DNA from: a virus
Reading direction: 5' to 3' (one strand)
IMG/VR virus record: IMGVR_UViG_3300028388_006015
Span: 1-64,000 of that record
Length of the DNA stretch: 64,000 nucleotides
In this document: positions 26,219 through 64,000 of the stretch, piece by piece
How positions within the stretch are numbered: the stretch's first letter is position 1
Layout: each line of letters starts with the position of its first letter
Position numbers and translations under genes: made by a program
The notes under the pieces: model-generated
The model's database searches: none
What the model was told of the DNA's origin: nothing
The model's input: only the letters and a program-made list of their open reading frames with translations

Positions 26219-28618
26219 TTATGATTTTGGTATGCGCTGTACCATTACAACAACATAGTAATTAGGATAATATGTTACTGGATCGCCACTCAAACCGTCA
26301 TTGCTTCCATCTTCAGTAGTTCCAACGATCAAGTGACTATGTGAATGTTCGTTGGTGTTTTTACCATCCAATGGATCAGCAAGTTCTCGACCGCCACCTC
26401 GATTAAAACCTGCATCACGGTGCGAACCTACTGCAGTACCGCTGTTTCTCGTATATATACGATGCGTGTGAGTGTCTGTGTTTGTGGTTAACGAGCCTGC
26501 TTCATGTGTATGAGGAGGAAGATTTTGCTTGCTAAGTGCAAAAGAATTAGATCCACCAACAGCTCCGATGTTTTCTAGACCATTTTCTGATGCATTGCGA
26601 TTGACGATGAAGCGACCTCTAAGATCAGGTGTATTGTTTTGACCGTTACAAAGAGCCCATCCGTAATACTCAGGAATTTGTCCTAGTCCACTTCCATCAA
26701 ATGCATTAACGGGAATATTGGATAGTGTACGAATCTCATACAACCAATGCTTGTCTTTTTCGACAGGAAAAGCGATCCATTGAGTTCCCGTGTAATAACA
26801 TTCAACTACAACTTTTTGATCTCCCCATTTTTGATAATCAATGTCAACAGCACTTAGTGCGTAGATAGGAGAGTCGCCTGGACCACTATAATTGCCGTAA
26901 ATCTCTATAGCATTACCGTTAGGTATGATATTTGCTTGAAAAATCAATACGAATTTATTACCTGCTCTTAAATCAGAGCCAGTGCAATTAAACAATAAAG
27001 GATTGCTTAAAGTAATATTTCCGGTAATGTATTGAATTTGAGCTGCAGTTCCTACAACAAGATCTATTTGAGAAGAGCTAAATGTTATTTCATACTCATC
27101 AACTCCAAGATTATCGCCAAGATCAATATTAAACGAAAATGTGCCATAATGGCGAGGATGAGCATTTAATGTTATAAATGGCGTGCCGAGAATATTACTA
27201 GAATACGATACTTGTGTGCGATCTGCAGGATTGGTTTTAAGATCACCATCCTCTTCAAACGACTCTTCATCATAATACCCAACATCATCACTCTGAAATA
27301 CTCGCCACTCAGTTAATACTCCATTAACTTTATAGCGATACCAGAATGCATAAGAGTATGCCGTTCTACTTGCTACTGTTAACGGAACCCAAGCATTATA
27401 GCTATTTATTGGATAAATTTGGCGAAAATCGTTTTGAGCGTTCAGATCTTCAGGAATACACCAAAGCTCAATATCATCAACATCAGGCGTTATTACGACA
27501 CGATATGCTGTGAAATAATCGTCCTGATCAAGTGTTGGAACGATAAGATTGATTTGACTGCCACTTTTTGTAGATTGCTCGATAATTTTATACGATCCAT
27601 CGTATGAATACAAGCGCCACCCGTCAAAGTCGCCATCACTAAAATCATCTGTTGATTTAAAACGTCCACCCTGACCTCCATTGATTGTAAATGTTCTACT
27701 TGCAGTATCTATCGTCCAATTTTGTGTATAAAACGCCCAACTAACATAACACACGTTCTTGTATCTCGGAGTGTTTGGCGCATCGTATTTAATAGCTTCT
27801 ACTCCAATAACAGGATTTTGTTGATCGCGCATTGCTTGTGGAATCGTCTGACTACGAAACTCACTACGCAACATCCAAAAATCACTACGTTTGTCTTGAA
27901 TAAACACAGTAGATCCCACATAACGAACCCTTGCAATATAAAACTCTTTACCACTAGTTAAAGGCGGTGGGGTATTTGAGATAGTTTCGAGAACAAATTC
28001 AAGATTGCAACTATCATACTGGTATATGTTTTTTTGATTTGATGTTGGAATGTGATCGAACGAAAATGTTCCGACAATAGCATACTGAAGATCGGATTCT
28101 GCTGCGAATACGCCATTTAATACAGCATTCGTATCATCCACAACATCGACAACGTCATATTCAAGAGTATTTCCTGCAGATCCAATAAAACGAATGCGAG
28201 TGGGGACTTTACTGGTACGTAATACCTCAGTAAATTTTGTATTAACACCAATAAGATTTCCTTGAGTGTCGATACTAACTGTTCCTTCTTCGATAGAAGA
28301 ATATTGATGGCTAATTTTTAACCAATACCAATTATTCTCTGCAGGAATAGCGATATTGTCTTGAGCAGGAAAGTCAAGAACAAGACCATCACTATCAATA
28401 GCATACGATCGAGTGTCGATTTTTATCGTTGGTGTGTTCGTTCCTTTCTCTACCTTGAAATTGTTCAAACCCACATCATCTACTGTACGAATGATGCCAT
28501 AACTGTAGGTTTGATCAATTATGAGTTTACGATAACCGTCTGTATCAAGAAAATCAATCAGACGCTGCAATTCAGGTTGCCCAATTTTAAGATTAGGTGA
28601 TATATTTAACTGACTCAT
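26219..28618 (-). CDS. Baseplate wedge/short tail fibre with tail-collar domain
   Basis: GWALCNGQNNTPDLRGRFIV collar, NLPPHTH and HTH/HSH metal-binding repeats; start at MSQLN. Confidence 0.85.
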   Translation of the reverse strand: MSQLNISPNLKIGQPELQRLIDFLDTDGYRKLIIDQTYSYGIIRTVDDVGLNNFKVEKGTNTPTIKIDTRSYAIDSDGLVLDFPAQDNIAIPAENNWYWLKISHQYSSIEEGTVSIDTQGNLIGVNTKFTEVLRTSKVPTRIRFIGSAGNTLEYDVVDVVDDTNAVLNGVFAAESDLQYAIVGTFSFDHIPTSNQKNIYQYDSCNLEFVLETISNTPPPLTSGKEFYIARVRYVGSTVFIQDKRSDFWMLRSEFRSQTIPQAMRDQQNPVIGVEAIKYDAPNTPRYKNVCYVSWAFYTQNWTIDTASRTFTINGGQGGRFKSTDDFSDGDFDGWRLYSYDGSYKIIEQSTKSGSQINLIVPTLDQDDYFTAYRVVITPDVDDIELWCIPEDLNAQNDFRQIYPINSYNAWVPLTVASRTAYSYAFWYRYKVNGVLTEWRVFQSDDVGYYDEESFEEDGDLKTNPADRTQVSYSSNILGTPFITLNAHPRHYGTFSFNIDLGDNLGVDEYEITFSSSQIDLVVGTAAQIQYITGNITLSNPLLFNCTGSDLRAGNKFVLIFQANIIPNGNAIEIYGNYSGPGDSPIYALSAVDIDYQKWGDQKVVVECYYTGTQWIAFPVEKDKHWLYEIRTLSNIPVNAFDGSGLGQIPEYYGWALCNGQNNTPDLRGRFIVNRNASENGLENIGAVGGSNSFALSKQNLPPHTHEAGSLTTNTDTHTHRIYTRNSGTAVGSHRDAGFNRGGGRELADPLDGKNTNEHSHSHLIVGTTEDGSNDGLSGDPVTYYPNYYVVVMVQRIPKS

Positions 28619-30192
28619 TGCAAAAATTCTACGTTTAGTCCCCAATTATATGGGGTAAAATATTGTCTAAATATACTAATAATTTGTCGCTGAGAATACC
28701 GACCGTTGTTATTTCTTATAAAGAATTCCAACATGCCGTGACTATCAAGAAATCCAAAATCATAAGGTGTTGTTGCGAGTGAAAATTTAAAATCGTGCAA
28801 TGTTACAGTTCCAGTGTCATTATCTGTGCAAATAATAAAAGGAAGCACCTTACATACATCTTTTGTCATTCTCTTATGGTATCCAACACCAACACTTAAT
28901 ATAGCATCAACTTCTTCTCTAGGAGTTGCAGTGGAGCTTAATAGCGCAAAGCGTAATGGATATACCGTATCTGCCTGATTAACACTTATGTTTTGCACAT
29001 AATACCTACTAAAATCTCCGGTATAAATATTTTGCGGCTCAGTTTCTGCATCTTCACTCGTTAAACACAAAATCCCTACTGTAATATTTTCTGACGTATT
29101 GTCGTCAATCTCAAGATCAATTGTCAACATATAATTAAGCAAGTGATTGACGTTAATGAGCTTATCAGCATCAACATCCAATAAAACGTCTGTACCTAAT
29201 CCACTATCTGGTGGCAGTGTTAACGCTGCATTGCTTATAGTTTCTCCTGTATTGTATGTTTGATAGTTCGATATGTCAGAAAAGCCGTAAAACTGCTCGT
29301 ATCCTTTATAGAATGCATTGTAGTAGTATACATCACGAAACTCAGGAGATGCACGATCTAATACCCATCCGGCATCAAAAAAACCTCTGTACGCGCGAAT
29401 AAATTCATTGCATCCTTCATAACACAACAATCTTAAAATCTCCCCATTTATATTTTGCTGCTCAATTATACTGTTTTGCGTTAAGCGATCACGAAATTGT
29501 ATGTGAATATTATTTGCTATGTATTGAAGTTGTTCAAGAGTCTCACTTCCACACAAATATACATTGCGCTGCTCTAAATAACGCCTTAATAGTATTTCGC
29601 GATTGTAGAAATCCTCAAATACACGCGCATAATTAACAAACATTGAAAAGAAACACGCTACTGTCCTCCAAAACTGGAGATAGTGAATATCATCCAAGTA
29701 ATTGTCAGTATCTCCACGATTAATATAATTAGGAACAATGCCCTGCTCATATAGCTTTTCAAGTACATTAACGCACCACGGAAAAATTTCAGCACTACAA
29801 CAGCATGTGAAAAAATTAACAAACGGACTATCATTAAATGCGTCACCACACTCAATATCAATGTATGTTGCATTAATTTGAATGCTATTAAACGACAATA
29901 CACCAGTGTCGTCCGATCCAACTCGGCGATATTGAAACTGAAGAAACAAAGGGTCTTGTGGCGTAAATTCGCTATTGATACCAGCAAGGTTGGTATTACT
30001 CAATGGAATCCAATCACTCCACAGAAATCCAACAACAGACCAACGAAAATACTTTTCAAACAAACGCGTTCCCGTAACACCATCTACGTCGTCGGAATAA
30101 CTAACGAGCTCGTCAACTCCAACAAACGGATTAGTTGGATGTATTAGTAAAATGTCGCCTATCTGTGTTAAGTGATTATTTACTATTGCCAT
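28615..30192 (-). CDS. Baseplate wedge protein (putative)
   Basis: 525 aa; position downstream of baseplate J. Confidence 0.6.
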   Translation of the reverse strand: MAIVNNHLTQIGDILLIHPTNPFVGVDELVSYSDDVDGVTGTRLFEKYFRWSVVGFLWSDWIPLSNTNLAGINSEFTPQDPLFLQFQYRRVGSDDTGVLSFNSIQINATYIDIECGDAFNDSPFVNFFTCCCSAEIFPWCVNVLEKLYEQGIVPNYINRGDTDNYLDDIHYLQFWRTVACFFSMFVNYARVFEDFYNREILLRRYLEQRNVYLCGSETLEQLQYIANNIHIQFRDRLTQNSIIEQQNINGEILRLLCYEGCNEFIRAYRGFFDAGWVLDRASPEFRDVYYYNAFYKGYEQFYGFSDISNYQTYNTGETISNAALTLPPDSGLGTDVLLDVDADKLINVNHLLNYMLTIDLEIDDNTSENITVGILCLTSEDAETEPQNIYTGDFSRYYVQNISVNQADTVYPLRFALLSSTATPREEVDAILSVGVGYHKRMTKDVCKVLPFIICTDNDTGTVTLHDFKFSLATTPYDFGFLDSHGMLEFFIRNNNGRYSQRQIISIFRQYFTPYNWGLNVEFLQ

Positions 30193-34207: not shown

Positions 34208-35173
34208 TTATTGAGAAGAAACAACGTTCGATAAAATTGTTGAGAATGTTTGAGGCGTATTTCCGGAAGCTATTGCTGCTACAAGCTGCGCTTTAAATTG
34301 CAAACCACCGTCTCCTGGAAGTGGTACTGCAGCATTAATGGCTGTGTATAATAATTGAATACGATTATTTAATGTAACGAGCTCTTGAAGTAAAGCGTTA
34401 CCTAATACAATAGGCTGTCCTCCTTCACCTCCTAACGAAACAATGTTTGCTTCAAGAGTTATATCATTTTCAGCACTCACAGTTTGACTTGATGCTGATG
34501 ACTGTATAGCTCCGTCCTTCATCACAAATGTATTGCCAAATTCATCTGTGATTGTTAATCCTGTACCTGCTACATACTTGATTGTTGCACTAACATCACT
34601 ATCAACATCCTCAATAACAAGTTCAATAGCTTCACCTGCATCAATCTTAACAGTCTTACTTGCTTGAATTTCAATGTTGCCATCAACACTCATTGTTAAT
34701 AGCCCTTGATCTTCACTGTTAGATAATAAAACTTGAATATGTCCTCCTTTGCGTCGTAAACTATCAACATTTAACGACAATATGTTGTTACGCGCATCAC
34801 CAACAATCTCTACAGTGCCGAGATCACTAGTCTTACGCACATGAAATTGATCTTCTATTAGCCAATCAGATTCATCATTTTTATTGAGAATTCCAATTAT
34901 CACAGGCTTATTGTGATTAGCAATGTTGCCCATTATTACTTGACTTCCTAGATTACCTGCCTGATCAGGAAACTGTATTGCGTTAACCAGATTATTAGAA
35001 ATACGCACATTCCATACAACCTCTCCATTCTCACCATACACACCTAACATATGTGTTCGTAAACAACGTGCAATATACACGTCACGAGCTATATTGTTAG
35101 GTAATATTACATATCCAGTTGTAATTGGATATCTTTTATTCGGCACCCCTGTTGTTGATATACCTTTATTCAT
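34208..35173 (-). CDS. Baseplate central spike (gpV/gp5-like)
   Basis: OB-like N-terminus (GSQVI...PVIIGIL), beta-helical middle, SLGGEGGQPIVLGN tip. Confidence 0.7.
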   Translation of the reverse strand: MNKGISTTGVPNKRYPITTGYVILPNNIARDVYIARCLRTHMLGVYGENGEVVWNVRISNNLVNAIQFPDQAGNLGSQVIMGNIANHNKPVIIGILNKNDESDWLIEDQFHVRKTSDLGTVEIVGDARNNILSLNVDSLRRKGGHIQVLLSNSEDQGLLTMSVDGNIEIQASKTVKIDAGEAIELVIEDVDSDVSATIKYVAGTGLTITDEFGNTFVMKDGAIQSSASSQTVSAENDITLEANIVSLGGEGGQPIVLGNALLQELVTLNNRIQLLYTAINAAVPLPGDGGLQFKAQLVAAIASGNTPQTFSTILSNVVSSQ

Positions 35174-51798: not shown

Positions 51799-52533
51799 TT
51801 AAAAACGAATTGGTGTCCAATTTAATCCAATCCCGACATAAGGTGCGGGACTTACCGCATTATTATTTAATGTGAATCCGTATCCAACCGAAACCCCAAT
51901 GCCAAACTTATTGGTAAGTCTGTCGATGATAATAGCTTCACCATCTACAATATCAATATATGGATTGTCGGTTGTAATATCAACAACTGAAGAACGCTTC
52001 TTAAAAAAGCCGCCCTTACGCTCAGTAATTTGAGAGGTGAGAGTTGCATATGTTTTGAATGCAAGGTCGATCGAATCTTGAGTAGCAACAACGCTCCAAT
52101 CTGCATACGCGTCTTGATTTTCACCATAATATGCATACTCAGGACAGTCGTTAGTGATTGTATTGTTTACGGGCACAGGAATTTCAACATATTCAGTATC
52201 TATTACCTCACGCGTTAATGTTGGAACGCTACCTTTATATTTGAGCTCAGCAACTAAGCGCGTATAATTGCGAATCAGACGATCTTGCTTCCGCACCTCT
52301 TTAAGAGCTTGATTGAGAAGAGAGTCTTTTTCTGAATACGCCCCTTCAATCTCATTACGATCAAGAACTAATGCTTCAATGCGAGTATGCGTTTGGTTGA
52401 GACTGTCTTTGTACGTATTAATAACGTCGGTGTGATAACTTTCAAGTTCGCGATGAATTCTTTGTTCCCTCGCACAAAATGATACCGATAACACGATACC
52501 GATTGCAAGTATGATGAATAGCCACTTTGTCAT
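51799..52533 (-). CDS. Spanin-like protein (N-terminal membrane anchor, coiled coil, C-terminal amphipathic beta-hairpin)
   Basis: MTKWLFIILAIGIVLSVSFC; C-terminus FGIGVSVGYG...YVGIGLNWTPIRF. Confidence 0.6.
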   Translation of the reverse strand: MTKWLFIILAIGIVLSVSFCAREQRIHRELESYHTDVINTYKDSLNQTHTRIEALVLDRNEIEGAYSEKDSLLNQALKEVRKQDRLIRNYTRLVAELKYKGSVPTLTREVIDTEYVEIPVPVNNTITNDCPEYAYYGENQDAYADWSVVATQDSIDLAFKTYATLTSQITERKGGFFKKRSSVVDITTDNPYIDIVDGEAIIIDRLTNKFGIGVSVGYGFTLNNNAVSPAPYVGIGLNWTPIRF

Positions 52534-52537
52534 AATA

Positions 52538-53140
52538 TTAATATTGTTTGATTACGTTTTTGATTACGTCCAAGTCAAGACACATTCCCGCCACTCCAAT
52601 AACTTCATTATTGCGAAATCGCGGATATTTTTGAACAACTAAAAGTGTAGTTTCGCCTTCAGGGTTTACAAACTTTTCTACACCAATCCAACTCATTTTA
52701 TTTTCGACAACCCACTTATTGTTCTCCATATAACGCTCAGCAAATTTTTGATCATTATATAGATCACTTATCTTTTTGCCAATGCAATCCTTTGCACTCA
52801 AATTATAATCATTGAGAAATGTTCGCTCATACTCTTTATTGACATATAGCATTACACCATCTATGGATGTAAGCCAATGAGCGTTAACGTGATCATAAGT
52901 TGCCGATTCAAAGAACACTATTTGAGATTGTAAGATATATACCTGTTTTTGCAATTCTCCAATCAACAAGTCATTTCTCTCAACCTCTTGTTTTAATGCC
53001 AATCTCTCAGCCTTGTATTCACTAATGATTAATACAAGCTCGTCCATATTTGTTTTTCGTCGCGTTGCCAAGTATGTTAAAAAACCACTAATGACAGTGG
53101 ACGAGAATATAGCTATAACTAGCTGTAATACATTGTCCAT
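52538..53140 (-). CDS. Membrane protein with coiled coil and PAS domain (holin-like)
   Basis: One TM followed by RRK; coiled coil; WLTSIDGVMLYVNKEYER...IGKKISDLY...KYP...VIGVAGMCLD is a PAS_4-type pattern. Confidence 0.75.
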   Translation of the reverse strand: MDNVLQLVIAIFSSTVISGFLTYLATRRKTNMDELVLIISEYKAERLALKQEVERNDLLIGELQKQVYILQSQIVFFESATYDHVNAHWLTSIDGVMLYVNKEYERTFLNDYNLSAKDCIGKKISDLYNDQKFAERYMENNKWVVENKMSWIGVEKFVNPEGETTLLVVQKYPRFRNNEVIGVAGMCLDLDVIKNVIKQY

Positions 53141-53146
53141 GGGAAT

Positions 53147-54742: not shown

Positions 54743-54758
54743 TCGCGCAACTTTAAAA

Positions 54759-54796
54759 CGTTGGAAATATACGTTAAAAAAGTATGCATTCCAACG
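54759..54796 (-). terminator. Hairpin between the holin-like gene and portal
   Basis: CGTTGGAA...TTCCAACG inverted repeat followed by TTTT on the minus strand. Confidence 0.5.
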
Positions 54797-54814
54797 ACCC
54801 TCATTTAATAAAAA

Positions 54815-55312
54815 TTAAACGCCCTCGGCAGATGTATTATTAATCAACTCCTGTTCTTCACCACCATTATCATTATCAAAGAAGAAGTGGTATAGCGGAT
54901 TGATTATATTTATTACCAATGCAATCGCAAAAGCCTCAAATTGACCGTTTCCTGATATCCAAGCAAACAGTGTCTCTATTAATTGAGCTGCTGCTCCATC
55001 AGGAAACGCAATACCTAAACCTACAGGAATCATAAGAAGAACAGTCAAGGATTGAATCCTAAAATTCATAGATTTTAGAAAATCCCACGACCATTGTTGA
55101 GTTTTTGTTAGCAACTTTAATACCGGGTTAAGAAAGTTTGTAATAAGCAACGCCACAATGGCTCCGATGTTGCCTCCATTAAAAACTTCAAACACCTCTC
55201 CTCCTGATACTCCAATATCAAAACCGTTAAGGTTAAATACGAGCAAAACGAGCGATATCAAAGATACAAAAAAGTTGCGACTATCAAAAGTTGCATTAAT
55301 CTTGGTTTGCAT
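54815..55312 (-). CDS. Multi-pass membrane protein with two-fold internal repeat (holin candidate)
   Basis: SRNFFV...NFLNPV and SMNFRI...NIINPL halves; about four hydrophobic segments. Confidence 0.6.
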   Translation of the reverse strand: MQTKINATFDSRNFFVSLISLVLLVFNLNGFDIGVSGGEVFEVFNGGNIGAIVALLITNFLNPVLKLLTKTQQWSWDFLKSMNFRIQSLTVLLMIPVGLGIAFPDGAAAQLIETLFAWISGNGQFEAFAIALVINIINPLYHFFFDNDNGGEEQELINNTSAEGV

Positions 55313-55317
55313 GACTA

Positions 55318-55893
55318 CTAAAGTTTTTTGCAATGAAAAGTAAGTTGAATTTTAATGTCTGTTGGAGCGACTCCTCCAGTTCCATCTTTGTTGTTATCAG
55401 CACCTCCATGCCATGGAAGAATATAGGCGGCTTTGCGAAAATCTTTATCCCATAAATATTGCGCCTCTATTGCTTTTTCGTCAGTGAAAATCTTGATCTT
55501 TACAAGACTGTCGTGAATAAATCTAATTTCACCACTAACATCTTGTCCTCGTTTAACACTTATTTCATTAGGTCTGACGAACTTGCCTTTATCATAGTTA
55601 AAATACGGAGCAATATCCCAAGTACCTTTTTCAGGGTTTGATTGGAACGTTACAATAGCAGCATCATAATTTGAAGGATTATTCTTGTTAAGATTAACGC
55701 CAAATAATTTGCTACTATCTAGTTGATCAGGATCTGGACGTATATCGTATGGATCGCTTAATATGCGAAATGAAAACTGAATACTATGCGTTTTTCGAAC
55801 ATTAATGCTCTTGAGAAAACGATAGTAAAAACGAGCAACTAAAGCTTTTACGCTTCTATCTATGTGGTGGCCTTTTTTAATTGTATAGATCAT
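55318..55893 (-). CDS. Hypothetical beta-sandwich protein (possible carbohydrate-active)
   Basis: 191 aa; DQLDSSKLFG, LPWHGG...APTDI. Confidence 0.5.
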   Translation of the reverse strand: MIYTIKKGHHIDRSVKALVARFYYRFLKSINVRKTHSIQFSFRILSDPYDIRPDPDQLDSSKLFGVNLNKNNPSNYDAAIVTFQSNPEKGTWDIAPYFNYDKGKFVRPNEISVKRGQDVSGEIRFIHDSLVKIKIFTDEKAIEAQYLWDKDFRKAAYILPWHGGADNNKDGTGGVAPTDIKIQLTFHCKKL

Positions 55894-56486
55894 TGCTTAT
55901 ATAGAATTAATGATTGGTCTAAACTTCTATACTCTACTCTACCAGCATTGTAGAGTCGATATAGCTCGTTATCTCCATTATAACCTAAGATCTTTAACCA
56001 ACTACTTCCTAAAAATCTCAGACTAAACGATTGTGGCCCAACTGTCATTGTTGGAGTGGGTTCAAAAGATATCAATGCATTAAAATAATTCTCCCCTCCA
56101 TCTTCTGAAATTTGCCAATTGCCAGTATAAGATTCAGCTACTGCATCTGCAGATATATCAAATATACTCACTCCAAACAAATTAAACAAAGAAGTATTTG
56201 CATCAACAACGACAGTAATAACCTCAGAGCGATCCCATATATCATTAACTTTCAAAGCTAAATCTTCAACTTGATTGTTTACTCTTCGAGATAGCAAATC
56301 CATAACTACAGAAGTGTCTTGAGTTTCGTATTGTGTAGTCGTAATTATTACACCTTTCTTAAAAGATTGTCCTACATAATAATATCCATTAAGCTCATAA
56401 GCAAAGATGCTGTCAGGTGTAGTTTGAGCTTGACCTACTGTGAAAGCGGACAGAAATAGAAACAAAAAAACGATAATGATTTTCAT
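55890..56486 (-). CDS. Signal-peptide-bearing hypothetical protein
   Basis: MKIIIVFLFLFLSAFTVGQA/Q: Sec-type signal with Gln at +1. Confidence 0.7.
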   Translation of the reverse strand: MKIIIVFLFLFLSAFTVGQAQTTPDSIFAYELNGYYYVGQSFKKGVIITTTQYETQDTSVVMDLLSRRVNNQVEDLALKVNDIWDRSEVITVVVDANTSLFNLFGVSIFDISADAVAESYTGNWQISEDGGENYFNALISFEPTPTMTVGPQSFSLRFLGSSWLKILGYNGDNELYRLYNAGRVEYRSLDQSLILYKQ

Positions 56487-56499
56487 AATTATTTGTTTT

Positions 56500-57306
56500 T
56501 TAAAAGTTGTATCTTGCATAAATCCAATCTCGCACTGACGCAATTTCTGTATTATTATGCTCATCGTCATAAATTAACAACTCAGCTATATATCCATCCC
56601 AAAAGCCTGAAGCCCCATCTCTACTAGAACCTATACAGCTACCATTAACCAAAAACTCACCCCAAGATTCAGACAATGAGTTAAAAGCTATACTTGTTCC
56701 TGGAGATACTACTGTCTTAAATTGACTACCAGAGTCGTCAATCATTACAACATACAATCTAGCAGTATTAATACTAGAACTGGATACTTTTGAAAATGCT
56801 TGAGTTTGACCCCTTACTAAAAACTCCTGAAACGATGCTGTTGATGCGTCAGATCTAATTATAAGACCTCCACTATTAGCTCCATTAAAACTAAATATTC
56901 GTTTATCGACAACATTAGCATCTGCTTTTCCTACAACATAGACAGTAATATGAGCGTTATTTGGCAAGAAGTCTCCGGTAGTTAACTCAAATCTATCATT
57001 AGCTCCATCAAAAACATAAGATGCTTGATTATTCATCACACCTACTATTGGAGCAAAAGTAGGTCTAAATGATGATATTGTTTGCTCATAAACAACGGTA
57101 GGATCTGCCCAATTAATTGGAGAGCTTACTGATTGACCGTTAGTATAAGTATCTATTTCAGCAGAGGCCTGAATGTGCACTTTTAAATTTGCAGTAACAG
57201 GAGGAGCTTCATATAAACCACCCCCATGCTGTCCCAACCACATTCCTTGCTGAGAAATCCCAACAAGAGGTAATAGCCATAATATGATTAATACTAGTCT
57301 ATTCAT
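56500..57306 (-). CDS. Signal-peptide-bearing LamG/lectin-like adhesin (fibre-tip type)
   Basis: MNRLVLIILWLLPLVGIS/Q; VFDGANDRF, FWDGYIAELLIYD...VRDWIYARYN; TAATG-coupled to the giant fibre. Confidence 0.8.
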   Translation of the reverse strand: MNRLVLIILWLLPLVGISQQGMWLGQHGGGLYEAPPVTANLKVHIQASAEIDTYTNGQSVSSPINWADPTVVYEQTISSFRPTFAPIVGVMNNQASYVFDGANDRFELTTGDFLPNNAHITVYVVGKADANVVDKRIFSFNGANSGGLIIRSDASTASFQEFLVRGQTQAFSKVSSSSINTARLYVVMIDDSGSQFKTVVSPGTSIAFNSLSESWGEFLVNGSCIGSSRDGASGFWDGYIAELLIYDDEHNNTEIASVRDWIYARYNF

Positions 57307-60300
57307 TATTCTATTGTTGTTAAGCATTTATATACGCCTGAGTTTCCGTAACAAGTCACCATCGCTTCTGTAGCTATTGTTATAGTACCTAAATCGGTAC
57401 CGTCTAATGAATTGAATTCTGATGGAAAAGTAATATCCGTATCGGCACTCATACCGGAAAAGTGGAAGTTATATACAGGAGCTGTACCTGCCAATGTAAC
57501 TTCATTGTTAATAGTTAGAGTACAGTCGTTATTACCTGTATTAGTTATATAGTAACTAGCGTTATAATAGCCCTCCATATCTAATGTAATAGTCGATCCT
57601 GTAATATTCCCAGTCAACAATTTATTTGTTAATTTCTCAAGGTAGTCGTATACCGCATTTTGGCTAGGCGCATTTGCCGTATCGCCATCCCATCCAGATC
57701 CGTAAGCATCATCCTCAACTCCTCCTACATCACCTTTAGACGCCATTAAATCCCAATCACTGGCCAAAGGACCAGGTTCTTCAGTTGTTGATGCTGCCGT
57801 GCATACCCAAGCACTTCCATCATTTTCAACTGCTTGATTTATCAAATACGTTCCTGCAGACCAAGCACCTTCCCAAGTAATATCACCATCGGCACCTGGA
57901 GATCCTGCAGGTCCGGCAGGTCCTTGCTCTCCCTGAAGTGCTTCAATTTTCATAATATTTATATACGTTGCTGTATCGGAAACATTAAATACTCCACTAT
58001 CTTCTATGGAAATAGCGTATAATTTAAGTTTATCCCCGCCATTAAATGTTTGAGTGTAAGTCAACGTAACAGCGCCATCATCTTGATTGCCATCTCTAGT
58101 AACATAGTCATTTGTACTAATGATAGAGCTATATCCTGACCCTTCATCTAAATGAAGACTTGCTGTAAGTTCGTTTCTACTAATAGCTCCGTTACCTGCT
58201 ACTTGAAAAGATATTTGATATAAAGCAGTGTCTAATAATGTAATCTCTTCACCACTTACCGTATACACTGAATCATCAGTTTCGTAGGGAGTATCCCACG
58301 ATAAAAATGTACCACTACTTGCAATATTACTAGTAGTTGTAGTAAATGCTCCCATAAACGAGAATGAACTAGGAATTGTTGTTTCAGGCGTTATCCATTT
58401 AAGACTATCTAAACCATCATTGATTCCTAAATAAGCACCTGCAACAGCAGATCCGGCAATTGGGTGTCTTTCCATATCATCGTCACTCGATCTAAAGCCT
58501 AACAATGACTCAGGAACACCATCATTAAACGTTTCGTACTTATCTAATTCCACTCGCCCGTCTGATTGTAGTGTCATAACATTCTGAGTGGTCAATCCAT
58601 TAGTAGTCCAAAAATTAAGATCTGATGAGCGACTCGATCCATTCCAATTACCAACTGCACTAGATTCAATAAACGACATTGGATAAAATGTACTAGACTC
58701 GTAACCTCCAAACAAAATTGCTCCTAATTTTTCACGATCAAAAATACTTGCATCTGAAGATCCAATAGTTAAGTGATTACTTCCTGATATAAAAGATGAT
58801 CCGCCGGTACTACTAGGTGCTTCTAAGAATAAAGAGCTGTATGATAAAGTACTATCTCCATCCTCCCACTTAAATCTTGTAAGGTTCGATCCGGCATCTG
58901 GATGTATTGCAAAATCACCATCTACAAAAAACTGATAACTACTATCCGCAGTACCAATTGATGCTCTTCCTAATCTATAAACTGCACTCAAATACGTACT
59001 ATCTCCCTCAAATCTCCAATCATCATCTCCTCCCCCTGAATCGCTTTGTAGATCTTCAATTGGAACGGCTAAATTAGATTCTCCATCCACCAATCTTAAA
59101 GAATCTCCATCTACCTCAAAACTAATATTATATCCTGATGTATCAGGAGATCCTCCTCCTGTTGGAGTGTCGTAGAAAATAAACGTCACGTCACTATCAG
59201 TGCTATCTGGTACCCATGCACCACGAACATAAACGGTCTTTGCTGTTGTTGCTGATACTTCAGGAACACTACCATCATTAAATAAGTGTGCATCTAAAAG
59301 CGTATATGTTCCACCTGCTGGATCTAATATTTGCAATACTGGTTTGGATCCAACTGTTGTAAATTCGCCAATTAACGTAACGTCGTTTAGACGAGATGAA
59401 ATTAACGTTGCTTCATCAACACTACGAAAAACACCTCTCAGCTCAAAAGTAGCGCCTGTAGGTGGCGTAAAGCTTCGAGGAGCAAATAATGGATCGTCAA
59501 TTGCACCAGTATAATCAAGATTGTATGTGAATTCGCCCTCATAACGAATAAATAGATTCTCACAATATGCATTAGGAAAATATCCTGTTTGCATAAGAGG
59601 ACTGTTGCCAAAATATTGATCTATATTTACTTCAATTGCACTATTGCGCAATGTATCTGCTCCTGTTCCCCAGTCAAAAGCAAACAATCCATATTCATTA
59701 ACATGACTGTCAAATCCGCCATTAGTTGTCAGGTTACTGACACGATCACTAATCATATTACCGACATTCCATCTAAGAGATGTGTTTTCCCATCTATGCG
59801 ATCCGGTAACCTGAAAAATACTGAAATCTTGATCAATTATATTCCAATATCCAATATTGATTTCGTGAGATTGATTGATGCATGTGTCAGTAAGAAAATA
59901 AAAGCCTCCCTGACGATATTGATTAAGTCTTTGAATGTTAAATTGCGTGTTTTCAAAACCTGTAGTACCGTCCCACTGACAAACAAAATTGTCTGTTGAT
60001 ATTTTATCAATCGTAATATTTGCAATCACTCCCTGTTCAAGCTCAAATAATGGAACTGATGTAGTGTTTGTCAAAAACGTATCAACAATCTCCTTAGCTT
60101 CAAATATTAAACTTTTGCCTGTTGTTGAATTCATATAGGCAATTTCTCCATCATTTCTTATTGTAATTTTTCCCCGACCAAGTACCGTAATGCCATATCC
60201 ATTATTATCATACCATAATGGAGAAGTTGATGCGTTAATGATCTCAGCGCCCTCAAATAAATAATATTGAAGATCGGGAGCTGTAATTAAATTATTAGAA

Positions 60301-63300
60301 GTTGCTGAATTCTTGATAATATCGTAATCAGGATACTCTCCCGTATACGTCAATGTTGTAGCGATATATCTTCCCGGTAATACTTGAATTTGATCTGAAC
60401 TATCTGCAGCCGCAGCAGCAGCCCAAGGATCTTTCCATGGACGAAGATAGTTTCCCTTTTCTGCAGTTGCGTTATTACCGTTTTCCGCAACAAATAGAAT
60501 ATCTCCATAATTTTCTTCTCCCACAAACGTACTTAACGTATCATTGCCATCTACAAGATATAACGTATCATTATCTACATACATATCAATGTTATATCCT
60601 GATGTGTCCGTATTGTCAAGATACGATGCAAGATCGGCTTCAAGAGTTCCGTCCTGATCAGTAATTTTTAAAGTATCGTTTTCGATTATAAGATTGTAGT
60701 TCGATCCAGAAGTATCTAAACCTATTCCATCTTGAAGTGATGCGAGATCTTCAGTTAATGTGCCATCTTGATCAGTCAGTTCGAGTACTGTTCCGTTAAG
60801 TACTAAGCTATAATTACTTCCAGACGTATCGAGTCCAATTCCATCTTGCAGATCTGGAATGTAAATGGCAAGATTAGTGCTTCCATCAATAATTCTCAAA
60901 GAATCTCCATCAATTTCAAAAGATATGTTATATCCGGAAGTGTCTGTATTTTCTATAGGAAATACTTGCCATGCCGTTCCGTCCCAATAATTAAACAAGT
61001 CAAGATCTGTATTCCAAAAAAAAGCACCATCATATACAACAGACGGAAGTGTAGGCCATAAATCTCGAGCTACTGTACTTGCATTAGTAGGTACGATAAC
61101 ACCTTCCGATGTGACTTTAACAGTCTCTAATTGAATTTCATGTCCACTATCTACATCTAATCTTAAATCACCACTGATTTCATCTATTACTACTCCACCA
61201 TCAAAATTATATATCGCAAAACTATCTAGAGGTGAATGACCTTCGAGATAATAGTTAACAGCATCATCTGAGCTATATGGTGTAACTACCCTTATAGCTC
61301 TTTCGGACAATCCTGCGTCCGTATTCAGATCAAACTGAAGCCAATAATCTTCAGGAACATTAACGTTCATTACAGCAGGTAAACTATTACCATCATTGCG
61401 AATGTCAAAAATACCGTTACTGTCTGCTACAATTACAAATAACTCACCTAACTGATCTGTTAATTTAAGAGTATCGTTTTCAAGAACGAAACTATAATTT
61501 GAACCACTTGTATCTGTGCCTACTAATGATAATAAATCAACTATTATAGTTCCATCTTGATCTGTAACTTCTAGGTCTGTACCGTTCAATACAATTGAAT
61601 AATTAGATCCTGATGTATCAACACCTACCCCATCCTGTAGGGATGCGAGATCTTGTATTAGTGTACCATTTTGATCGGTTAATTCTAATTGAGTTCCATT
61701 AAGCGTTAATGTATAATTACTACCTGACGTATCTACTCCTATACCGTCTTGAAGATCAGGAATGTATACAGCTAAATTCGTACTACCATCAACAACTCTC
61801 AAACTATCGCCGTCAATCTCAAACGATATATTATAGCCCGAAGTGTCTGTATTGTCAAGAAGATCTGACAGGTCTACATCAGTGCCATTTTCTATATCTA
61901 AATCACCCAATCCATTATACGTTAAACCTTGATCGTCTGTATTGTCTAAATACGCAGATAGATCAACAACCAATAGTCCACTTTGATCAACAATCTTTAA
62001 CGAATCATTCTCTATAACTAATGAGTAATTTGAACCTGAAGTGTCAGTACCAACTAAGGATGCTAAATCTTGTATTAACGTTCCTCCTCCATCCACTAAC
62101 TCAAGATCTGTCCCGTTAAGAGTTAAAGATGTGTTATATTCGTTTGTTGGGTCTGCATCAGCATCATCAACAGAATCTTCAAATTGAACTTGACCACCAT
62201 CTACTAACGATATGATAATTGTAGTTCCAGTAGAGTCAATAGACAAATCTTGAGTGTCAGTGTTATCGAGATATGGCGACAAAATCACAGCAAAGCTTCC
62301 ATTCTGATCTTGAATATATAAGCTGTCATTCGATATATAAAAATTATAATTTGAGCCTGATGTATCAGTACCTATTCCATCTTGAAGTGACGCCAAATCA
62401 GCAGTAAGAGTACCGTTCTGATCAAGCAATTCTAGATCTGTACCGTTAAGTATTAATGAATAATTTGAACCTGACGTATCCGTTCCAATCCCATCCTGAA
62501 GATCAGGGATATAAACGGCGAAGTTAGTATTTCCGTCTGTCAATCTCAAACTGTCTCCATCTATTACAAATGAAGTATTATATCCAGAAGTATCGGTATT
62601 GTCGAGATACGCAGACAAGTCAACTATTAGCGTACCGTTTTGATCTGCTAATTTCAAAGAATCATTTTGTATGATTAAAGAGTAATTACTGCCCGAACTA
62701 TCTGTACCGACCAAAGAAGACATGTCTGTAATTATAGTACCATTTTGATCTGTAGTTTCAAGATCAGTGCCATTTAATAGTATTGAATAGTTCGAGCCTG
62801 AAGTATCCGTTCCAACACCATCTTGAAGGTCTGGAATATAAACAGCCAAACTCGTTTGACCATCAGTTATTCGTAGACTGTCACCATCAATAACGAATGA
62901 GACATTATATCCTGAGGTGTCGGTATTATCAATATAAATATCGTTCAGTGTTGCTGTGTCTGCTACTAAAGGATCGCCTAATGTTCCATCACCAGAAATA
63001 CCGTATCCTGTTTCAGCAACTTGGTTTCCCCAATCATCTCCATCCACTGTAGCTGCAGATAACGGCTTAAACATACCATCGCCAAACAACACCATAGTAT
63101 CTTGTCCTATCTGTGGTTGAGGAACAAGTCCTCTTTGACCTGCAGTAGATGAAGTCGCGCCCACCATTACATTGACAGTATCACCTACTCCATTAGTTAT
63201 TGACATTAATCCTGTAGCTGCATCGTATGATAAATCTTGCTCATCTACTCCTAAATCTGGAATATAAACAGCAAAATTTGTTTGACCGTCGATTATACGT

Positions 63301-64000
63301 AAACTATCTCCGTCAATTTCAAAACTGTAATTATAACCACTACTATCAATTCCTCCACCACCTGCAAATACTCTCCATGCTTGATCAATAAACATACCAA
63401 TAGTATCTTGTGCGGCTGTTATAAAGAAATCTTGCTCTCTTGGTGCAAGTGTATTGGTATCAACAACCTCATCAAGAATAAAAAAGTCATTATCGCACAC
63501 ATTGTAGTATCTGCCACTGCTAATTATATACAATCGCAATTCTGCAGTTGATGAACGAATTGTGTCAGGACCGGCTAATGTAAAAAAACTACATCCTTGA
63601 CGTAAAATGTCTGTACTGTCTGGTGATGTGATTCTAAATGGCGTTCCTAATTCTGTACTTGAACCTCGCACGTAAATAATTTTGCCATCATAACTTGTAT
63701 CGGGAAGTGTTGGAAAGATAATATCAACAGGAGAGCCTGTAAATGCACCGCCATATATAGATATGATGTCGCTCGTGTCAAGAACCTCAATTGGCAATGT
63801 GTAAGAGTCGCCAAACGTTAGTCTTTTATGGAACACACGATTATCTCTAATGTATGGAATCAAAGAAGCAAAAAGGATACCGCCTTGATCTTCAAGATAC
63901 AAAGTGTCATTTTGCACATACATATCGTAGTTCGTTCCAGATGTATCCGTTCCAATGCCATCTTGAATATCAGGTATGTAAATAGCTAAATTCGTCTGAC
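57306..64000 (-). CDS. Giant acidic repeat-rich fibre/adhesin (>2230 aa, 5' end outside the window)
   Basis: Frame stays open to 64000 (QTNLAIYIPDIQDGIGTDTSGTNYD-M). Contains ~35-aa repeats, a beta-helix-like block, a C1q-like domain, a collagen stretch GEQGPAGPAGSPGADG and a WEGAWSAGTY...W module. Confidence 0.88.
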   Translation of the reverse strand, partial: QTNLAIYIPDIQDGIGTDTSGTNYDMYVQNDTLYLEDQGGILFASLIPYIRDNRVFHKRLTFGDSYTLPIEVLDTSDIISIYGGAFTGSPVDIIFPTLPDTSYDGKIIYVRGSSTELGTPFRITSPDSTDILRQGCSFFTLAGPDTIRSSTAELRLYIISSGRYYNVCDNDFFILDEVVDTNTLAPREQDFFITAAQDTIGMFIDQAWRVFAGGGGIDSSGYNYSFEIDGDSLRIIDGQTNFAVYIPDLGVDEQDLSYDAATGLMSITNGVGDTVNVMVGATSSTAGQRGLVPQPQIGQDTMVLFGDGMFKPLSAATVDGDDWGNQVAETGYGISGDGTLGDPLVADTATLNDIYIDNTDTSGYNVSFVIDGDSLRITDGQTSLAVYIPDLQDGVGTDTSGSNYSILLNGTDLETTDQNGTIITDMSSLVGTDSSGSNYSLIIQNDSLKLADQNGTLIVDLSAYLDNTDTSGYNTSFVIDGDSLRLTDGNTNFAVYIPDLQDGIGTDTSGSNYSLILNGTDLELLDQNGTLTADLASLQDGIGTDTSGSNYNFYISNDSLYIQDQNGSFAVILSPYLDNTDTQDLSIDSTGTTIIISLVDGGQVQFEDSVDDADADPTNEYNTSLTLNGTDLELVDGGGTLIQDLASLVGTDTSGSNYSLVIENDSLKIVDQSGLLVVDLSAYLDNTDDQGLTYNGLGDLDIENGTDVDLSDLLDNTDTSGYNISFEIDGDSLRVVDGSTNLAVYIPDLQDGIGVDTSGSNYTLTLNGTQLELTDQNGTLIQDLASLQDGVGVDTSGSNYSIVLNGTDLEVTDQDGTIIVDLLSLVGTDTSGSNYSFVLENDTLKLTDQLGELFVIVADSNGIFDIRNDGNSLPAVMNVNVPEDYWLQFDLNTDAGLSERAIRVVTPYSSDDAVNYYLEGHSPLDSFAIYNFDGGVVIDEISGDLRLDVDSGHEIQLETVKVTSEGVIVPTNASTVARDLWPTLPSVVYDGAFFWNTDLDLFNYWDGTAWQVFPIENTDTSGYNISFEIDGDSLRIIDGSTNLAIYIPDLQDGIGLDTSGSNYSLVLNGTVLELTDQDGTLTEDLASLQDGIGLDTSGSNYNLIIENDTLKITDQDGTLEADLASYLDNTDTSGYNIDMYVDNDTLYLVDGNDTLSTFVGEENYGDILFVAENGNNATAEKGNYLRPWKDPWAAAAAADSSDQIQVLPGRYIATTLTYTGEYPDYDIIKNSATSNNLITAPDLQYYLFEGAEIINASTSPLWYDNNGYGITVLGRGKITIRNDGEIAYMNSTTGKSLIFEAKEIVDTFLTNTTSVPLFELEQGVIANITIDKISTDNFVCQWDGTTGFENTQFNIQRLNQYRQGGFYFLTDTCINQSHEINIGYWNIIDQDFSIFQVTGSHRWENTSLRWNVGNMISDRVSNLTTNGGFDSHVNEYGLFAFDWGTGADTLRNSAIEVNIDQYFGNSPLMQTGYFPNAYCENLFIRYEGEFTYNLDYTGAIDDPLFAPRSFTPPTGATFELRGVFRSVDEATLISSRLNDVTLIGEFTTVGSKPVLQILDPAGGTYTLLDAHLFNDGSVPEVSATTAKTVYVRGAWVPDSTDSDVTFIFYDTPTGGGSPDTSGYNISFEVDGDSLRLVDGESNLAVPIEDLQSDSGGGDDDWRFEGDSTYLSAVYRLGRASIGTADSSYQFFVDGDFAIHPDAGSNLTRFKWEDGDSTLSYSSLFLEAPSSTGGSSFISGSNHLTIGSSDASIFDREKLGAILFGGYESSTFYPMSFIESSAVGNWNGSSRSSDLNFWTTNGLTTQNVMTLQSDGRVELDKYETFNDGVPESLLGFRSSDDDMERHPIAGSAVAGAYLGINDGLDSLKWITPETTIPSSFSFMGAFTTTTSNIASSGTFLSWDTPYETDDSVYTVSGEEITLLDTALYQISFQVAGNGAISRNELTASLHLDEGSGYSSIISTNDYVTRDGNQDDGAVTLTYTQTFNGGDKLKLYAISIEDSGVFNVSDTATYINIMKIEALQGEQGPAGPAGSPGADGDITWEGAWSAGTYLINQAVENDGSAWVCTAASTTEEPGPLASDWDLMASKGDVGGVEDDAYGSGWDGDTANAPSQNAVYDYLEKLTNKLLTGNITGSTITLDMEGYYNASYYITNTGNNDCTLTINNEVTLAGTAPVYNFHFSGMSADTDITFPSEFNSLDGTDLGTITIATEAMVTCYGNSGVYKCLTTIE
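59040..64000 (-). repeat. About 18 degenerate ~100-bp coding repeats (D[TS]SG[YS]N...)
   Basis: Hand count: 17 D[TS]SG[YS]N in the listed protein plus one DTSGTN upstream; copies differ at synonymous positions. Confidence 0.9.

What the first reader, a model, noticed from the sequence alone, without database searches (positions are those of the whole stretch)
55890..64000. Fibre module whose proteins carry Sec signal peptides: virion fibres possibly built through the host periplasm
Seen: the LamG tip-like protein (MNRLVLIILWLLPLVGIS/Q) and the next protein (MKIIIVFLFLFLSAFTVGQA/Q) start with cleavable signal peptides with Gln at +1. The LamG gene is TAATG-coupled to a >2230-aa protein with phage-fibre hallmarks (collagen, C1q-like, WxGxW module) mixed with DADADPTNE-type repeats resembling Bacteroidota surface proteins. 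The module sits with lysis genes, about 27 kb from the baseplate fibre. Known: tailed virions assemble in the cytoplasm and fibres normally lack signal peptides; Bacteroidota SPI proteins commonly expose Gln at +1. Inference: these proteins are exported and either attach to virions at lysis or coat the infected cell (adhesion, superinfection exclusion).
Basis: partly seen in the sequence, partly recalled or inferred. Interest (0 to 1): 0.8.

Follow-up and report, generated by a model that had tools for sequence, protein, structure and literature searches.

The report
Phage fibre genes carrying export signals
An uncultured 75-kb contractile-tailed phage of Bacteroidota puts its host's own secretion signal on a 2,407-residue fibre-like protein and the two small proteins after it, so these proteins very probably mature outside the cytoplasm, where tailed-phage particles are not known to be built; whether they end up on the virion is not shown.

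Summary
The window is bases 1-64000 of a 75,147-bp phage contig. The giant gene's true start, 529 bases beyond the window, also encodes a leader (MKRVASILLFISLLTSSFA/QTS). So three consecutive, tightly coupled genes have a basic n-region, a hydrophobic core, small residues at -3 and -1, and Gln at +1.

All six phage-borne relatives with a complete N-terminus carry such a leader, as do 104 of the 149 best database relatives. None of the three proteins has a T9SS C-terminal domain or a lipobox.

The repeat unit is shared with a large cellular Bacteroidota family of leader-bearing, tail-fibre-like proteins. In the cultured Cellulophaga phage phi18:3, three leader-bearing proteins in the same position, just before the lysis genes, are annotated as virion proteins from MS/MS.

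This phage also has an ordinary leaderless baseplate fibre. The exported set is therefore a second system, and a non-virion role is not excluded. "C1q-like" was not verified, and no endolysin was found beside the module.

I found no paper describing leader-bearing tailed-phage fibres. This scan has noted the same pattern on other phage DNA several times.

The parts
57306..64000 (-). Giant fibre-like gene. The full gene runs from genome base 57306 to 64529 (2407 aa, P0002). Its first 177 codons, including the leader MKRVASILLFISLLTSSFA/QTS at genome 64473-64529, lie beyond the window end.
   Evidence: 759 HMMER relatives; tail-fibre phrog_5073 on residues 2199-2269
59037..64000 (-). Span holding 19 copies of a roughly 31-38-aa repeat (DTSG[YS]N...DG/NG..L...D..G.....L), interrupted by unique domains. 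It reaches genome base 64061.
   Evidence: the repeats align with P0003 and other relatives
62139..62165 (-). DADADPTNE motif (residues 789-797). This is the hallmark of the cellular Bacteroidota leader-bearing fibre family.
   Evidence: at least 567 bacterial loci of that family; only 2 viral contigs hold the exact motif
57723..57935 (-). Short collagen-like run (GEQGPAGPAGSPGADG, 57885-57932) followed by a W-rich module (ITWEGAWSAGTY). This stretch matches a phage tail-fibre family.
   Evidence: phrog_5073 E 3.5e-10; tblastn hit to a 'collagen alpha 1' CDS of a Caudoviricetes contig
56500..57306 (-). 268-aa probable LamG / concanavalin-A-like lectin gene, coupled to the giant by TAATG. Its leader MNRLVLIILWLLPLVGIS/QQ is encoded at 57253-57306.
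   Evidence: Pfam PF13385 E 7e-6, just below the cut-off; phrog_5939 tail protein E 4.8e-5
55890..56486 (-). 198-aa protein of unknown fold. Its leader MKIIIVFLFLFLSAFTVGQA/QT is encoded at 56427-56486.
   Evidence: no family hit; Atlas model poor, pTM 0.40
55318..55893 (-). 191-aa leaderless protein, overlapping the 198-aa gene by ATGA. It belongs to a family found mostly in viruses. Function unknown, probably a beta-sandwich.
   Evidence: Atlas own model pTM 0.84; nearest clusters 69-100% viral; my AF2 model was poor
54815..55333 (-). 172-aa four-TM holin-like protein.
   Evidence: four hydrophobic segments; homologous to the 159-aa TM protein that precedes the GH19 endolysin in phage contig G001
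53147..54742 (-). Portal protein. It marks the start of the head gene block just downstream of the module.
   Evidence: Pfam PF04860 E 4.6e-24; phrog_12 E 8e-44
52538..53140 (-). 200-aa protein with an N-terminal TM segment and a PAS domain. It belongs to a family associated with lysis cassettes.
   Evidence: Pfam PAS_4; homologous to phi14:2 gp089, which sits next to the GH19 endolysin (E 4e-20), and to phi18:3 gp090
51799..52533 (-). 244-aa protein with a lipoprotein- or anchor-like N-terminus (MTKWLFIILAIGIVLSVSFC/A). Spanin-like candidate.
   Evidence: phrog_14997 E 1.8e-5; weak DUF6808 hit
26219..28645 (-). 808-aa leaderless baseplate tail fibre: the phage's conventional, cytoplasmic fibre.
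   Evidence: phrog_8469 and phrog_1800 tail-fibre / tail-collar families; no leader; baseplate wedge gene at 31309-32505

Best explanation
The three genes form a Sec-exported fibre module of a lytic Bacteroidota myovirus.

Proposed sequence of events:
1. Late in infection the host Sec translocon exports the 2407-aa fibre, the LamG lectin and the 198-aa protein.
2. Signal peptidase I cuts after SFA, GIS and GQA. The exposed Gln is cyclised by the host glutaminyl cyclase (Q-rule).
3. The proteins fold, and the fibre probably trimerises, in the periplasm. The fibre may be O-glycosylated there at some of its 34 D-[ST]-[AILVMT] sites.
4. With no T9SS domain or lipobox, they stay in the periplasm until the neighbouring holin-like and lysis proteins open the inner membrane.
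5. They then meet the particles built in the cytoplasm and bind to them as accessory long fibres. These are additional to the leaderless baseplate fibre.

What is shown: the leaders, their conservation, the absence of other sorting signals, and the gene order.
What is inferred: export, cleavage and a periplasmic stay (strongly), glycosylation (weakly), and attachment to virions (by analogy only).
For: Leaders.
- Three canonical leaders with Gln at +1 lie on consecutive coupled genes.
- They are the only such N-termini in the proteome apart from the adjacent membrane proteins.
- Leader plus Gln is kept in 6 of 6 phage-borne giants on five different phage backbones with GC from 30 to 52% (G003 repeats G004): window, G001/P0003, G002, G004/P0007, L104, L105.
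- 104 of the 149 best HMMER hits have a leader, 93 of them with a small-x-small/Q motif.
- A small leader-bearing protein follows the giant in G001, G002, G004 and L104 as well.

Sorting signals.
- No T9SS CTD and no lipobox.

Phage-fibre character.
- phrog_5073 tail fibre and phrog_5939 tail protein match.
- Relatives end in Phage Tail Collar or Peptidase_S74 domains.
- The module lies inside the late structural block.

Virion link by analogy.
- phi18:3 gp085, gp086 and gp087 have leaders with Gln and are annotated as structural proteins from MS/MS.
- They are followed by TM proteins, a homologue of this window's PAS-TM protein, and an endolysin.

Sequons.
- The giant has 34 against 19.9 +/- 4.1 expected from composition. 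The leaderless tail proteins of the same phage have 0.3-0.65 times expectation.
- The Q-rule itself comes from PMC5837995 and PMC10653852.
Against: - No signal-peptide predictor could be run, and there are no experiments on this phage.
- The phage has a complete leaderless baseplate fibre, so it does not need the giant for adsorption.
- No domain of the giant resembles a known virion-attachment domain. Its N-terminal domain has no relative in the phage or in the proteins fetched.
- The repeat family is overwhelmingly cellular: at least 567 bacterial loci against a handful of viral ones. That fits a captured host adhesin.
- The nearest cultured relative by portal sequence, Chryseobacterium phage MA9V-3, has no such gene before its portal.
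- The phi18:3 proteins are not sequence relatives of these three. Their MS detection could reflect co-purified envelope debris, and I could not read the paper.
- About half of the giant's sequons sit in repeat copies, so they are not independent. LamG has none and the 198-aa protein one. phi18:3 gp085-087 are sequon-poor.
Confidence: 0.45

Rival explanations
1. The proteins are exported but are not virion parts. The phage carries a captured copy of a cellular, MAT-like adhesin fibre with two helper proteins, and uses them on the infected cell's envelope. Possible roles: masking or destroying the receptor to block superinfection or re-adsorption to debris, or making the infected cell stick to neighbours or particles.
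For: - The repeat unit and the leader are those of a very large cellular Bacteroidota family found among ordinary chromosomal genes.
- The layout is the same as in Bdellovibrio MAT surface fibres: leader, then a beta-rich N-terminal domain, then a fibre, then a variable tip (PMC10769870).
- The phage has its own leaderless baseplate fibre.
- The module abuts envelope-acting membrane proteins.
- Porphyromonas phages also carry Q-rule proteins that their authors read as envelope modifiers (PMC10367356).
Against: - A 7.2-kb gene is a heavy load for a 75-kb lytic phage if it is only accessory.
- It sits in the late structural block, not in a moron-like island, and its GC matches the phage.
- Leader-bearing giants take the place expected for tail fibres in crAss-like contigs G002 and G004.
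- The phi18:3 analogues are in the virion MS set.
- No outer-membrane sorting signal was found.
Confidence: 0.37
2. The hydrophobic N-termini are not cleaved leaders. Either they are uncleaved anchors holding the proteins on the periplasmic face of the inner membrane, or the proteins are made leaderless from internal starts and assemble in the cytoplasm like ordinary fibres.
For: - No predictor or experiment was available.
- LamG has a Met (M22) three residues after the predicted cleavage site, so it could give a leaderless form.
- Relatives with classical leaderless phage-fibre starts exist: P0144 and P0124.
Against: - All three have short cores of about 11-14 residues and small residues at -3 and -1. 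Gln at +1 has no reason to be kept unless signal peptidase I cuts there.
- The pattern is conserved across distant relatives.
- The giant's first ATG follows the upstream stop by 2 nt, and its next Met is at residue 72.
- The giant and the 198-aa protein have no Met just after the leader.
Confidence: 0.1

Closest known systems
Cellulophaga phage phi18:3 (KC821620, Pachyviridae) gp085, gp086, gp087
   Same: - Three consecutive proteins with leaders ending in Gln (FGYS/QV, VSA/QT, LNA/QT).
- They sit directly upstream of small TM proteins, a homologue of this window's PAS-TM protein (gp090) and an endolysin (gp092).
- Bacteroidota host.
   Different: - No detectable sequence similarity to the three window proteins.
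- Much shorter (547-785 aa), and sequon-poor.
- The phage is a podovirus.
- They are annotated as structural proteins from MS/MS. No such data exist for this phage, and the record does not comment on the leaders.
Bdellovibrio bacteriovorus mosaic adhesive trimer (MAT) fibres (Caulton et al. 2024, PMC10769870)
   Same: - Signal peptide, then a conserved beta-rich N-terminal domain of about 130-150 aa, then a long fibre, then a variable tip.
- Phage-tail-fibre-like modules. S74 and Collar endings occur in the Bacteroidota relatives.
   Different: - MAT proteins are cellular, from another phylum, and were shown on the predator's surface.
- No sequence relationship was tested or found here.
- This one is encoded by a lytic phage.
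Cellular Bacteroidota family of leader-bearing 'tail fiber domain-containing' proteins (leader, then ...PE..YQAVVRD N-domain, then DADADPTNE/LNGT.LE.TD repeats, then a Collar, Peptidase_S74 or Lcl_C end)
   Same: Shares the repeat unit, the leader and the Q-rule cleavage motif with the giant.
   Different: - These are chromosomal genes among housekeeping genes and usually 300-1000 aa.
- They have a different N-terminal domain. The giant lacks the YQAVVRD domain and has no Collar or S74 hit.
- Their function is unstudied as far as I could find.
Classical exported phage accessory proteins (lambda Lom and Bor, T5 Llp, Cor; Q-rule proteins of Porphyromonas phages, PMC10367356)
   Same: Phage-encoded proteins that use the host Sec pathway and act at the envelope.
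   Different: - Those are small, mostly prophage-borne, and have no fibre architecture.
- Here the protein is a 2407-aa fibre inside the late structural block of an apparently lytic phage.
- The lambda and T5 examples are from my own knowledge and were not checked here.
Ordinary tailed-phage tail fibres, e.g. the leaderless fibres of crAss-like Cellulophaga phage phi14:2 (gp091-gp097)
   Same: - Fibre-type modules.
- Position at the end of the structural block, just before the PAS protein and endolysin.
   Different: They have no leader and assemble in the cytoplasm. One study even used the absence of signal peptides as a mark of phage origin for DGR target proteins (PMC6199706).

Membership tests
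Sec / signal peptidase I substrates of Bacteroidota (Q-rule) | N-terminal leader: basic n-region, uncharged hydrophobic core, small residues at -3 and -1 | tested here: met
   All three proteins pass a rule-based scan. SignalP was not available.
Sec / signal peptidase I substrates of Bacteroidota (Q-rule) | Gln at +1 of the mature protein | tested here: met
   SFA/Q, GIS/Q and GQA/Q. 93 of 104 leader-bearing relatives show the same motif. The rule comes from PMC5837995.
Sec / signal peptidase I substrates of Bacteroidota (Q-rule) | Actual translocation, cleavage and pyroglutamate formation | not testable with these tools
   Needs reporter fusions or N-terminal proteomics.
T9SS cargo | C-terminal sorting domain (Pfam Por_Secre_tail, NCBIfam TIGR04183 or TIGR04131) | tested here: not met
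   No hit in any of the three proteins at E <= 0.01 (Pfam) or E <= 0.1 (NCBIfam).
Bacterial lipoproteins (signal peptidase II) | Lipobox with Cys at +1 | tested here: not met
   None of the three leaders has a Cys at or near the cleavage site. The neighbouring 244-aa protein does have ...VSFC/A.
Phage tail fibre / virion component | Sequence modules of known tail-fibre families | tested here: met
   phrog_5073 tail fibre E 3.5e-10 on the collagen and W-module stretch. phrog_5939 tail protein E 4.8e-5 on LamG. Relatives carry Collar and Peptidase_S74 domains.
Phage tail fibre / virion component | Physical presence in purified virions | not testable with these tools
   The only evidence is an analogy: phi18:3 gp085-087 are annotated from MS/MS. 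The phage is uncultured.
Phage tail fibre / virion component | Recognisable virion-attachment (N-terminal adaptor) domain | tested here: inconclusive
   Residues 20-165 have no relative in the phage, among the fetched proteins, or in PDB sequences. The AF2 model is unusable, pLDDT 39.
Substrates of the general O-glycosylation system of Bacteroidota | Periplasmic exposure plus D-[ST]-[AILVMT] sequons above expectation | tested here: inconclusive
   Giant: 34 sequons against 19.9 +/- 4.1 expected (1.7-fold; 0-1 of 500-1000 shuffles reach it), but about half lie in repeat copies. LamG has 0 and the 198-aa protein 1.
   No Pfam hit in the giant. Only the unrelated 216-aa leader protein of contig G001 has a weak BclA_C hit (E 4e-4, below cut-off).
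Lysis cassette | Holin-like membrane protein plus an endolysin next to the module | tested here: inconclusive
   The 4-TM protein is homologous to one that precedes a GH19 endolysin. The PAS-TM protein is homologous to ones beside endolysins. No endolysin was recognised in 51.8-57.3 kb.

The most novel reading that the evidence does not exclude
Tailed phages of Bacteroidota build part of their host-recognition gear in a second compartment. Long fibres and their lectin partners are exported by Sec, capped with pyroglutamate and perhaps sugar-coated by host enzymes in the periplasm. They join the particles built in the cytoplasm only in the short interval after the holin opens the inner membrane. 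In this myovirus that would give a virion with two classes of fibre made in two compartments.
Probability: 0.4. Interest if true: 0.85.

Novelty: new variant of a known kind. Interest (0 to 1): 0.62.

Why it matters
Tailed-phage assembly is taught as wholly cytoplasmic, and the lack of signal peptides has even been used as a criterion for phage origin (PMC6199706).

A conserved, host-specific export signal on fibre-type genes of several unrelated Bacteroidota phage lineages would have these consequences:
- Receptor-binding parts could receive host periplasmic modifications: pyroglutamate, O-glycans, disulfides.
- Lysis timing and virion completion would be mechanistically linked.
- Annotation pipelines that discard leader-bearing proteins as 'bacterial' would miss phage adhesins.

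If the proteins are instead non-virion, the finding still matters. It would show a lytic phage spending a tenth of its genome on remodelling the infected cell's envelope with a captured host adhesin.

The question is testable now in the cultured Cellulophaga phi18:3 system.

Tried and rejected
- Close-relative searches in IMG/VR with the LamG and 198-aa proteins found nothing. So did tblastn against GenBank phages.
- The word-based protein search returned only the query itself for LamG and for the 191-aa protein.
I recovered genomic context through IMG/VR loci instead.
- An alignment of eight giants was too divergent to seed a locus search.
- phmmer of the giant against PDB sequences found nothing at E <= 1.
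- Single-sequence AlphaFold2 models were too poor to compare with any library: pLDDT 54 for the 191-aa protein and 39 for giant residues 20-230. No fold search was run.
- ESM Atlas gave no usable lead for the 198-aa protein (best score 0.83).
- The Holmfeldt 2013 paper behind the phi18:3 MS annotation is not held. I therefore do not know the purification method or whether peptides cover the leaders.
- Four literature searches found no paper describing leader-bearing tailed-phage fibres.
- Rejected, T9SS surface display: no CTD.
- Rejected, lipoprotein anchoring: no Cys.
- Rejected, 'C1q-like': no profile hit.
- Rejected, a recent foreign island: the GC of the module (0.36-0.38) equals that of the phage.


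Full report
**What the DNA is.** The window is bases 1-64000 of a single 75,147-bp viral contig with almost every gene on the minus strand. It encodes a portal (PF04860), a prohead protease, capsid, sheath, tube and tape-measure genes, a baseplate wedge and an 808-aa tail fibre. It is therefore a contractile-tailed phage. The portal's nearest cultured relatives are Chryseobacterium phage MA9V-3 and Bacteroides DAC phages at 37-38% identity. Together with the leader features described below, this places the host in Bacteroidota.

**The observation.** Read along the minus strand, the region is a tightly packed array:
- a 262-aa gene;
- the giant, starting 2 nt after that gene's stop;
- LamG, overlapping the giant's stop as TAATG;
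- the 198-aa gene, after a 13-nt gap;
- the 191-aa gene, overlapping by ATGA;
- a 172-aa four-TM gene, overlapping by 16 nt;
- the portal.

I fetched the rest of the contig. The giant is 2407 aa (P0002) and begins MKRVASILLFISLLTSSFA/QTS. The other two begin MNRLVLIILWLLPLVGIS/QQG and MKIIIVFLFLFLSAFTVGQA/QTT. So three consecutive proteins have a basic n-region, an uncharged core of 11-14 residues, small residues at -3 and -1, and Gln at +1.

No signal-peptide predictor is on hand, so I applied a rule-based scan to every ORF of the phage. It flags these three plus the membrane proteins next to them: the 172-aa four-TM protein, the PAS-TM protein, and a 244-aa protein with a lipobox-like ...VSFC. 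Nothing comparable appears in the other roughly 65 ORFs, including all recognised head, tail and baseplate proteins. Gln at +1 is the Bacteroidota-specific mark of signal peptidase I substrates (PMC5837995, PMC10653852).

- Confirmed or likely: a probable LamG fold, just under Pfam's cut-off; a 16-residue collagen-like run followed by a W-rich module that matches tail-fibre phrog_5073; the DADADPTNE motif.
- Not confirmed: a C1q-like domain.

**Conservation.** An exhaustive HMMER search with residues 1-1200 found 759 relatives.
- Of the best 149, 104 start with a leader, and 93 of those have a small-x-small/Q motif right after it.
- Most of the other 45 are fragments that start inside the repeats or inside a leader.
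- A few look like classical leaderless phage fibres, for example P0144 and P0124.

I recovered phage contigs holding relatives:
- G001 (IMG/VR, GC 52%): P0003 starts MQKLFFISCFVLVAFAGFS/QT.
- G002 and G004/G003: fragments whose gene order looks crAss-like (my reading of the gene order, not checked by a family search), with giants of 3381 and 2733 aa.
- L104 and L105.

All six phage-borne giants with a readable start carry a leader with Gln. In G001, G002, G004 and L104 the next gene also encodes a leader-bearing protein, as it does here. Those small proteins are not detectably related to one another apart from their leaders.

**Destination.** None of the three proteins has a T9SS C-terminal domain (Pfam and NCBIfam) or a Cys for lipidation. 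By known rules they should be soluble periplasmic proteins. That is an inference from absent signals. Cellular fibre families with no known outer-membrane signal, such as Bdellovibrio MAT, do reach the surface (PMC10769870).

**Where the giant comes from.**
- Its repeat unit (DTSG.N... and DADADPTNE...LNGT.LE.TD..GT) is that of a very large cellular family.
- In isolates such as Winogradskyella aquimaris and Polaribacter glomeratus these genes sit among ordinary chromosomal genes.
- Members end in Phage Tail Collar, Peptidase_S74 or Lcl_C domains.
- The layout is leader, beta-rich N-domain, fibre, variable tip, as in the MAT fibres.
- The exact DADADPTNE motif occurs on only two IMG/VR contigs.

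The giant is thus a phage-borne member of a mostly cellular, exported, tail-fibre-like family. Its GC equals that of the phage, so it is not a fresh acquisition.

**Link to lysis genes.**
- The 172-aa four-TM protein is homologous to the 159-aa TM protein that precedes a GH19 endolysin in G001, where it also follows the giant and a leader-bearing small protein.
- The PAS-TM protein is homologous to phi14:2 gp089, which sits next to a GH19 endolysin (E 4e-20), and to phi18:3 gp090.
- I found no endolysin in 51.8-57.3 kb.
- The 191-aa protein belongs to a mostly viral family of unknown function.
- In crAss-like Cellulophaga phage phi14:2, leaderless MS-proven structural proteins occupy the same position before the PAS protein and endolysin.

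So 'fibres, then lysis genes' is a common gene order in these phages and is not specific to exported fibres.

- gp085 (MKNKITIIMILMSISFGYS/QV), gp086 (...TISGVSA/QT) and gp087 (...SIGLNA/QT) are consecutive and leader-bearing.
- Each is annotated 'structural protein, annotation based on experimental MS/MS proteomics analysis'.
- They are followed by small TM proteins, the PAS-TM homologue and a GH108-type endolysin.

This is the only experimental hint that leader-bearing proteins of such a cassette travel with particles. It is an analogy, because there is no sequence similarity to the window proteins. I also could not read the source paper to judge the purification.

Points against a necessary virion role here:
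- The phage has an ordinary leaderless baseplate fibre 28.7 kb away.
- MA9V-3 has no such gene before its portal.
- The giant's N-terminal domain resembles nothing.

**Sequons.**

| Protein set | D-[ST]-[AILVMT] sites | Against composition shuffles |
|---|---|---|
| Giant of this window | 34 (1.41 per 100 aa) | 19.9 +/- 4.1 expected, 1.7-fold |
| Rest of this phage's proteome | 0.27 per 100 aa | not computed |
| Other phage giants | not listed | 1.5-2.3-fold |
| Leaderless tail proteins of this phage | not listed | 0.3-0.65-fold |
| LamG | 0 | about 1 expected |
| 198-aa protein | 1 | near expectation |
| phi18:3 gp085-087 | 1 each | depleted (0.27-0.35-fold) |

About half of the giant's sites lie in repeat copies. 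Glycosylation is therefore possible for the giants but is not a general property of leader-bearing phage proteins.

**Verdict.** Export of the three proteins is well supported by sequence and by conservation. What happens next is open. I put 0.45 on accessory virion fibres that mature in the periplasm and dock at lysis. I put 0.37 on an exported, non-virion envelope or adhesion function of a captured cellular fibre. I put 0.10 on the leaders not acting as cleaved signals. The remainder is for explanations I have not thought of.

Literature searches found no description of leader-bearing tailed-phage fibres. One study treats the absence of signal peptides as a sign of phage origin (PMC6199706), and Porphyromonas phage work notes Q-rule proteins of unknown function (PMC10367356). 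This scan has reported the same pattern on several other phage contigs, so this window is one more instance. Its particular features are a myovirus with a separate leaderless fibre, and a clear tie to the cellular MAT-like family.

Noticed in passing
window 51799-52533 (-): The 244-aa protein starts MTKWLFIILAIGIVLSVSFC/AREQ, a lipobox-like or anchor-like N-terminus. It directly follows the PAS-TM gene (phrog_14997, weak DUF6808 hit). It is a candidate spanin-type lysis protein.
   Followed up: partly
window 51799-57306: No recognisable endolysin lies beside the holin-like and PAS-TM genes, although homologous cassettes in G001, phi14:2 and phi18:3 have GH19 or GH108 enzymes there. The portal gene sits between the membrane-protein genes. 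The 847-aa tail protein at 35166-37709 has a lysin-type match (phrog_1015).
   Followed up: partly
window 55318-55893 (-): The 191-aa leaderless protein belongs to a family found mostly in viruses (ESM Atlas scores 0.98; own Atlas model pTM 0.84). It has only weak look-alikes among jelly-roll glycan-binding or lyase families. Function unknown.
   Followed up: partly
window 57241-57243 (-), LamG residue 22: A Met codon lies three residues after the predicted LamG cleavage site (GIS/QQGM). An internal start there would give a leaderless form. This is speculation and was not tested.
   Followed up: no
L001 5043-7448 (-) = genome 68043-70448, beyond the window: The 801-aa protein looks like a P-loop ATPase (GTGGVGKE) interrupted by an intein-like insert with a homing-endonuclease motif (LLGYFLGDGCL). 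This was read by eye from the translation.
   Followed up: no
L002 10331-10912 (-) = genome 65331-65912, beyond the window: The 193-aa protein two genes upstream of the giant ends in what looks like a bacterial Ig-like domain (ITVGNGSAGNLATSDNIEFTADITPAGDGEVTVDV...). It has no family hit in PHROGs or NCBIfam.
   Followed up: partly
L038 4072-5925, L084 5534-5995, L020 5457-5984: In bacterial genomes, the gene just upstream of the leader-bearing fibre-family gene encodes another leader-bearing protein. Its C-terminus looks like a T9SS sorting domain (...GVYVVQLQNNEEQRSQKVIIN and similar). This was judged by eye only.
   Followed up: no
L103 (phi14:2) 20355-20984 and L019 (phi18:3) 13103-13621: The PAS-TM protein of this window has homologues beside the endolysins of two cultured Cellulophaga phages of different families.
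   Followed up: partly
L003 7852-8931 (+): Phage contig G001 encodes a 359-aa protein made of about eight copies of a roughly 40-aa repeat (...YPWSSGFGTKYSNPATLP...). It looks like a beta-propeller and lies between a tail-fibre-like gene and the leader-bearing module.
   Followed up: no
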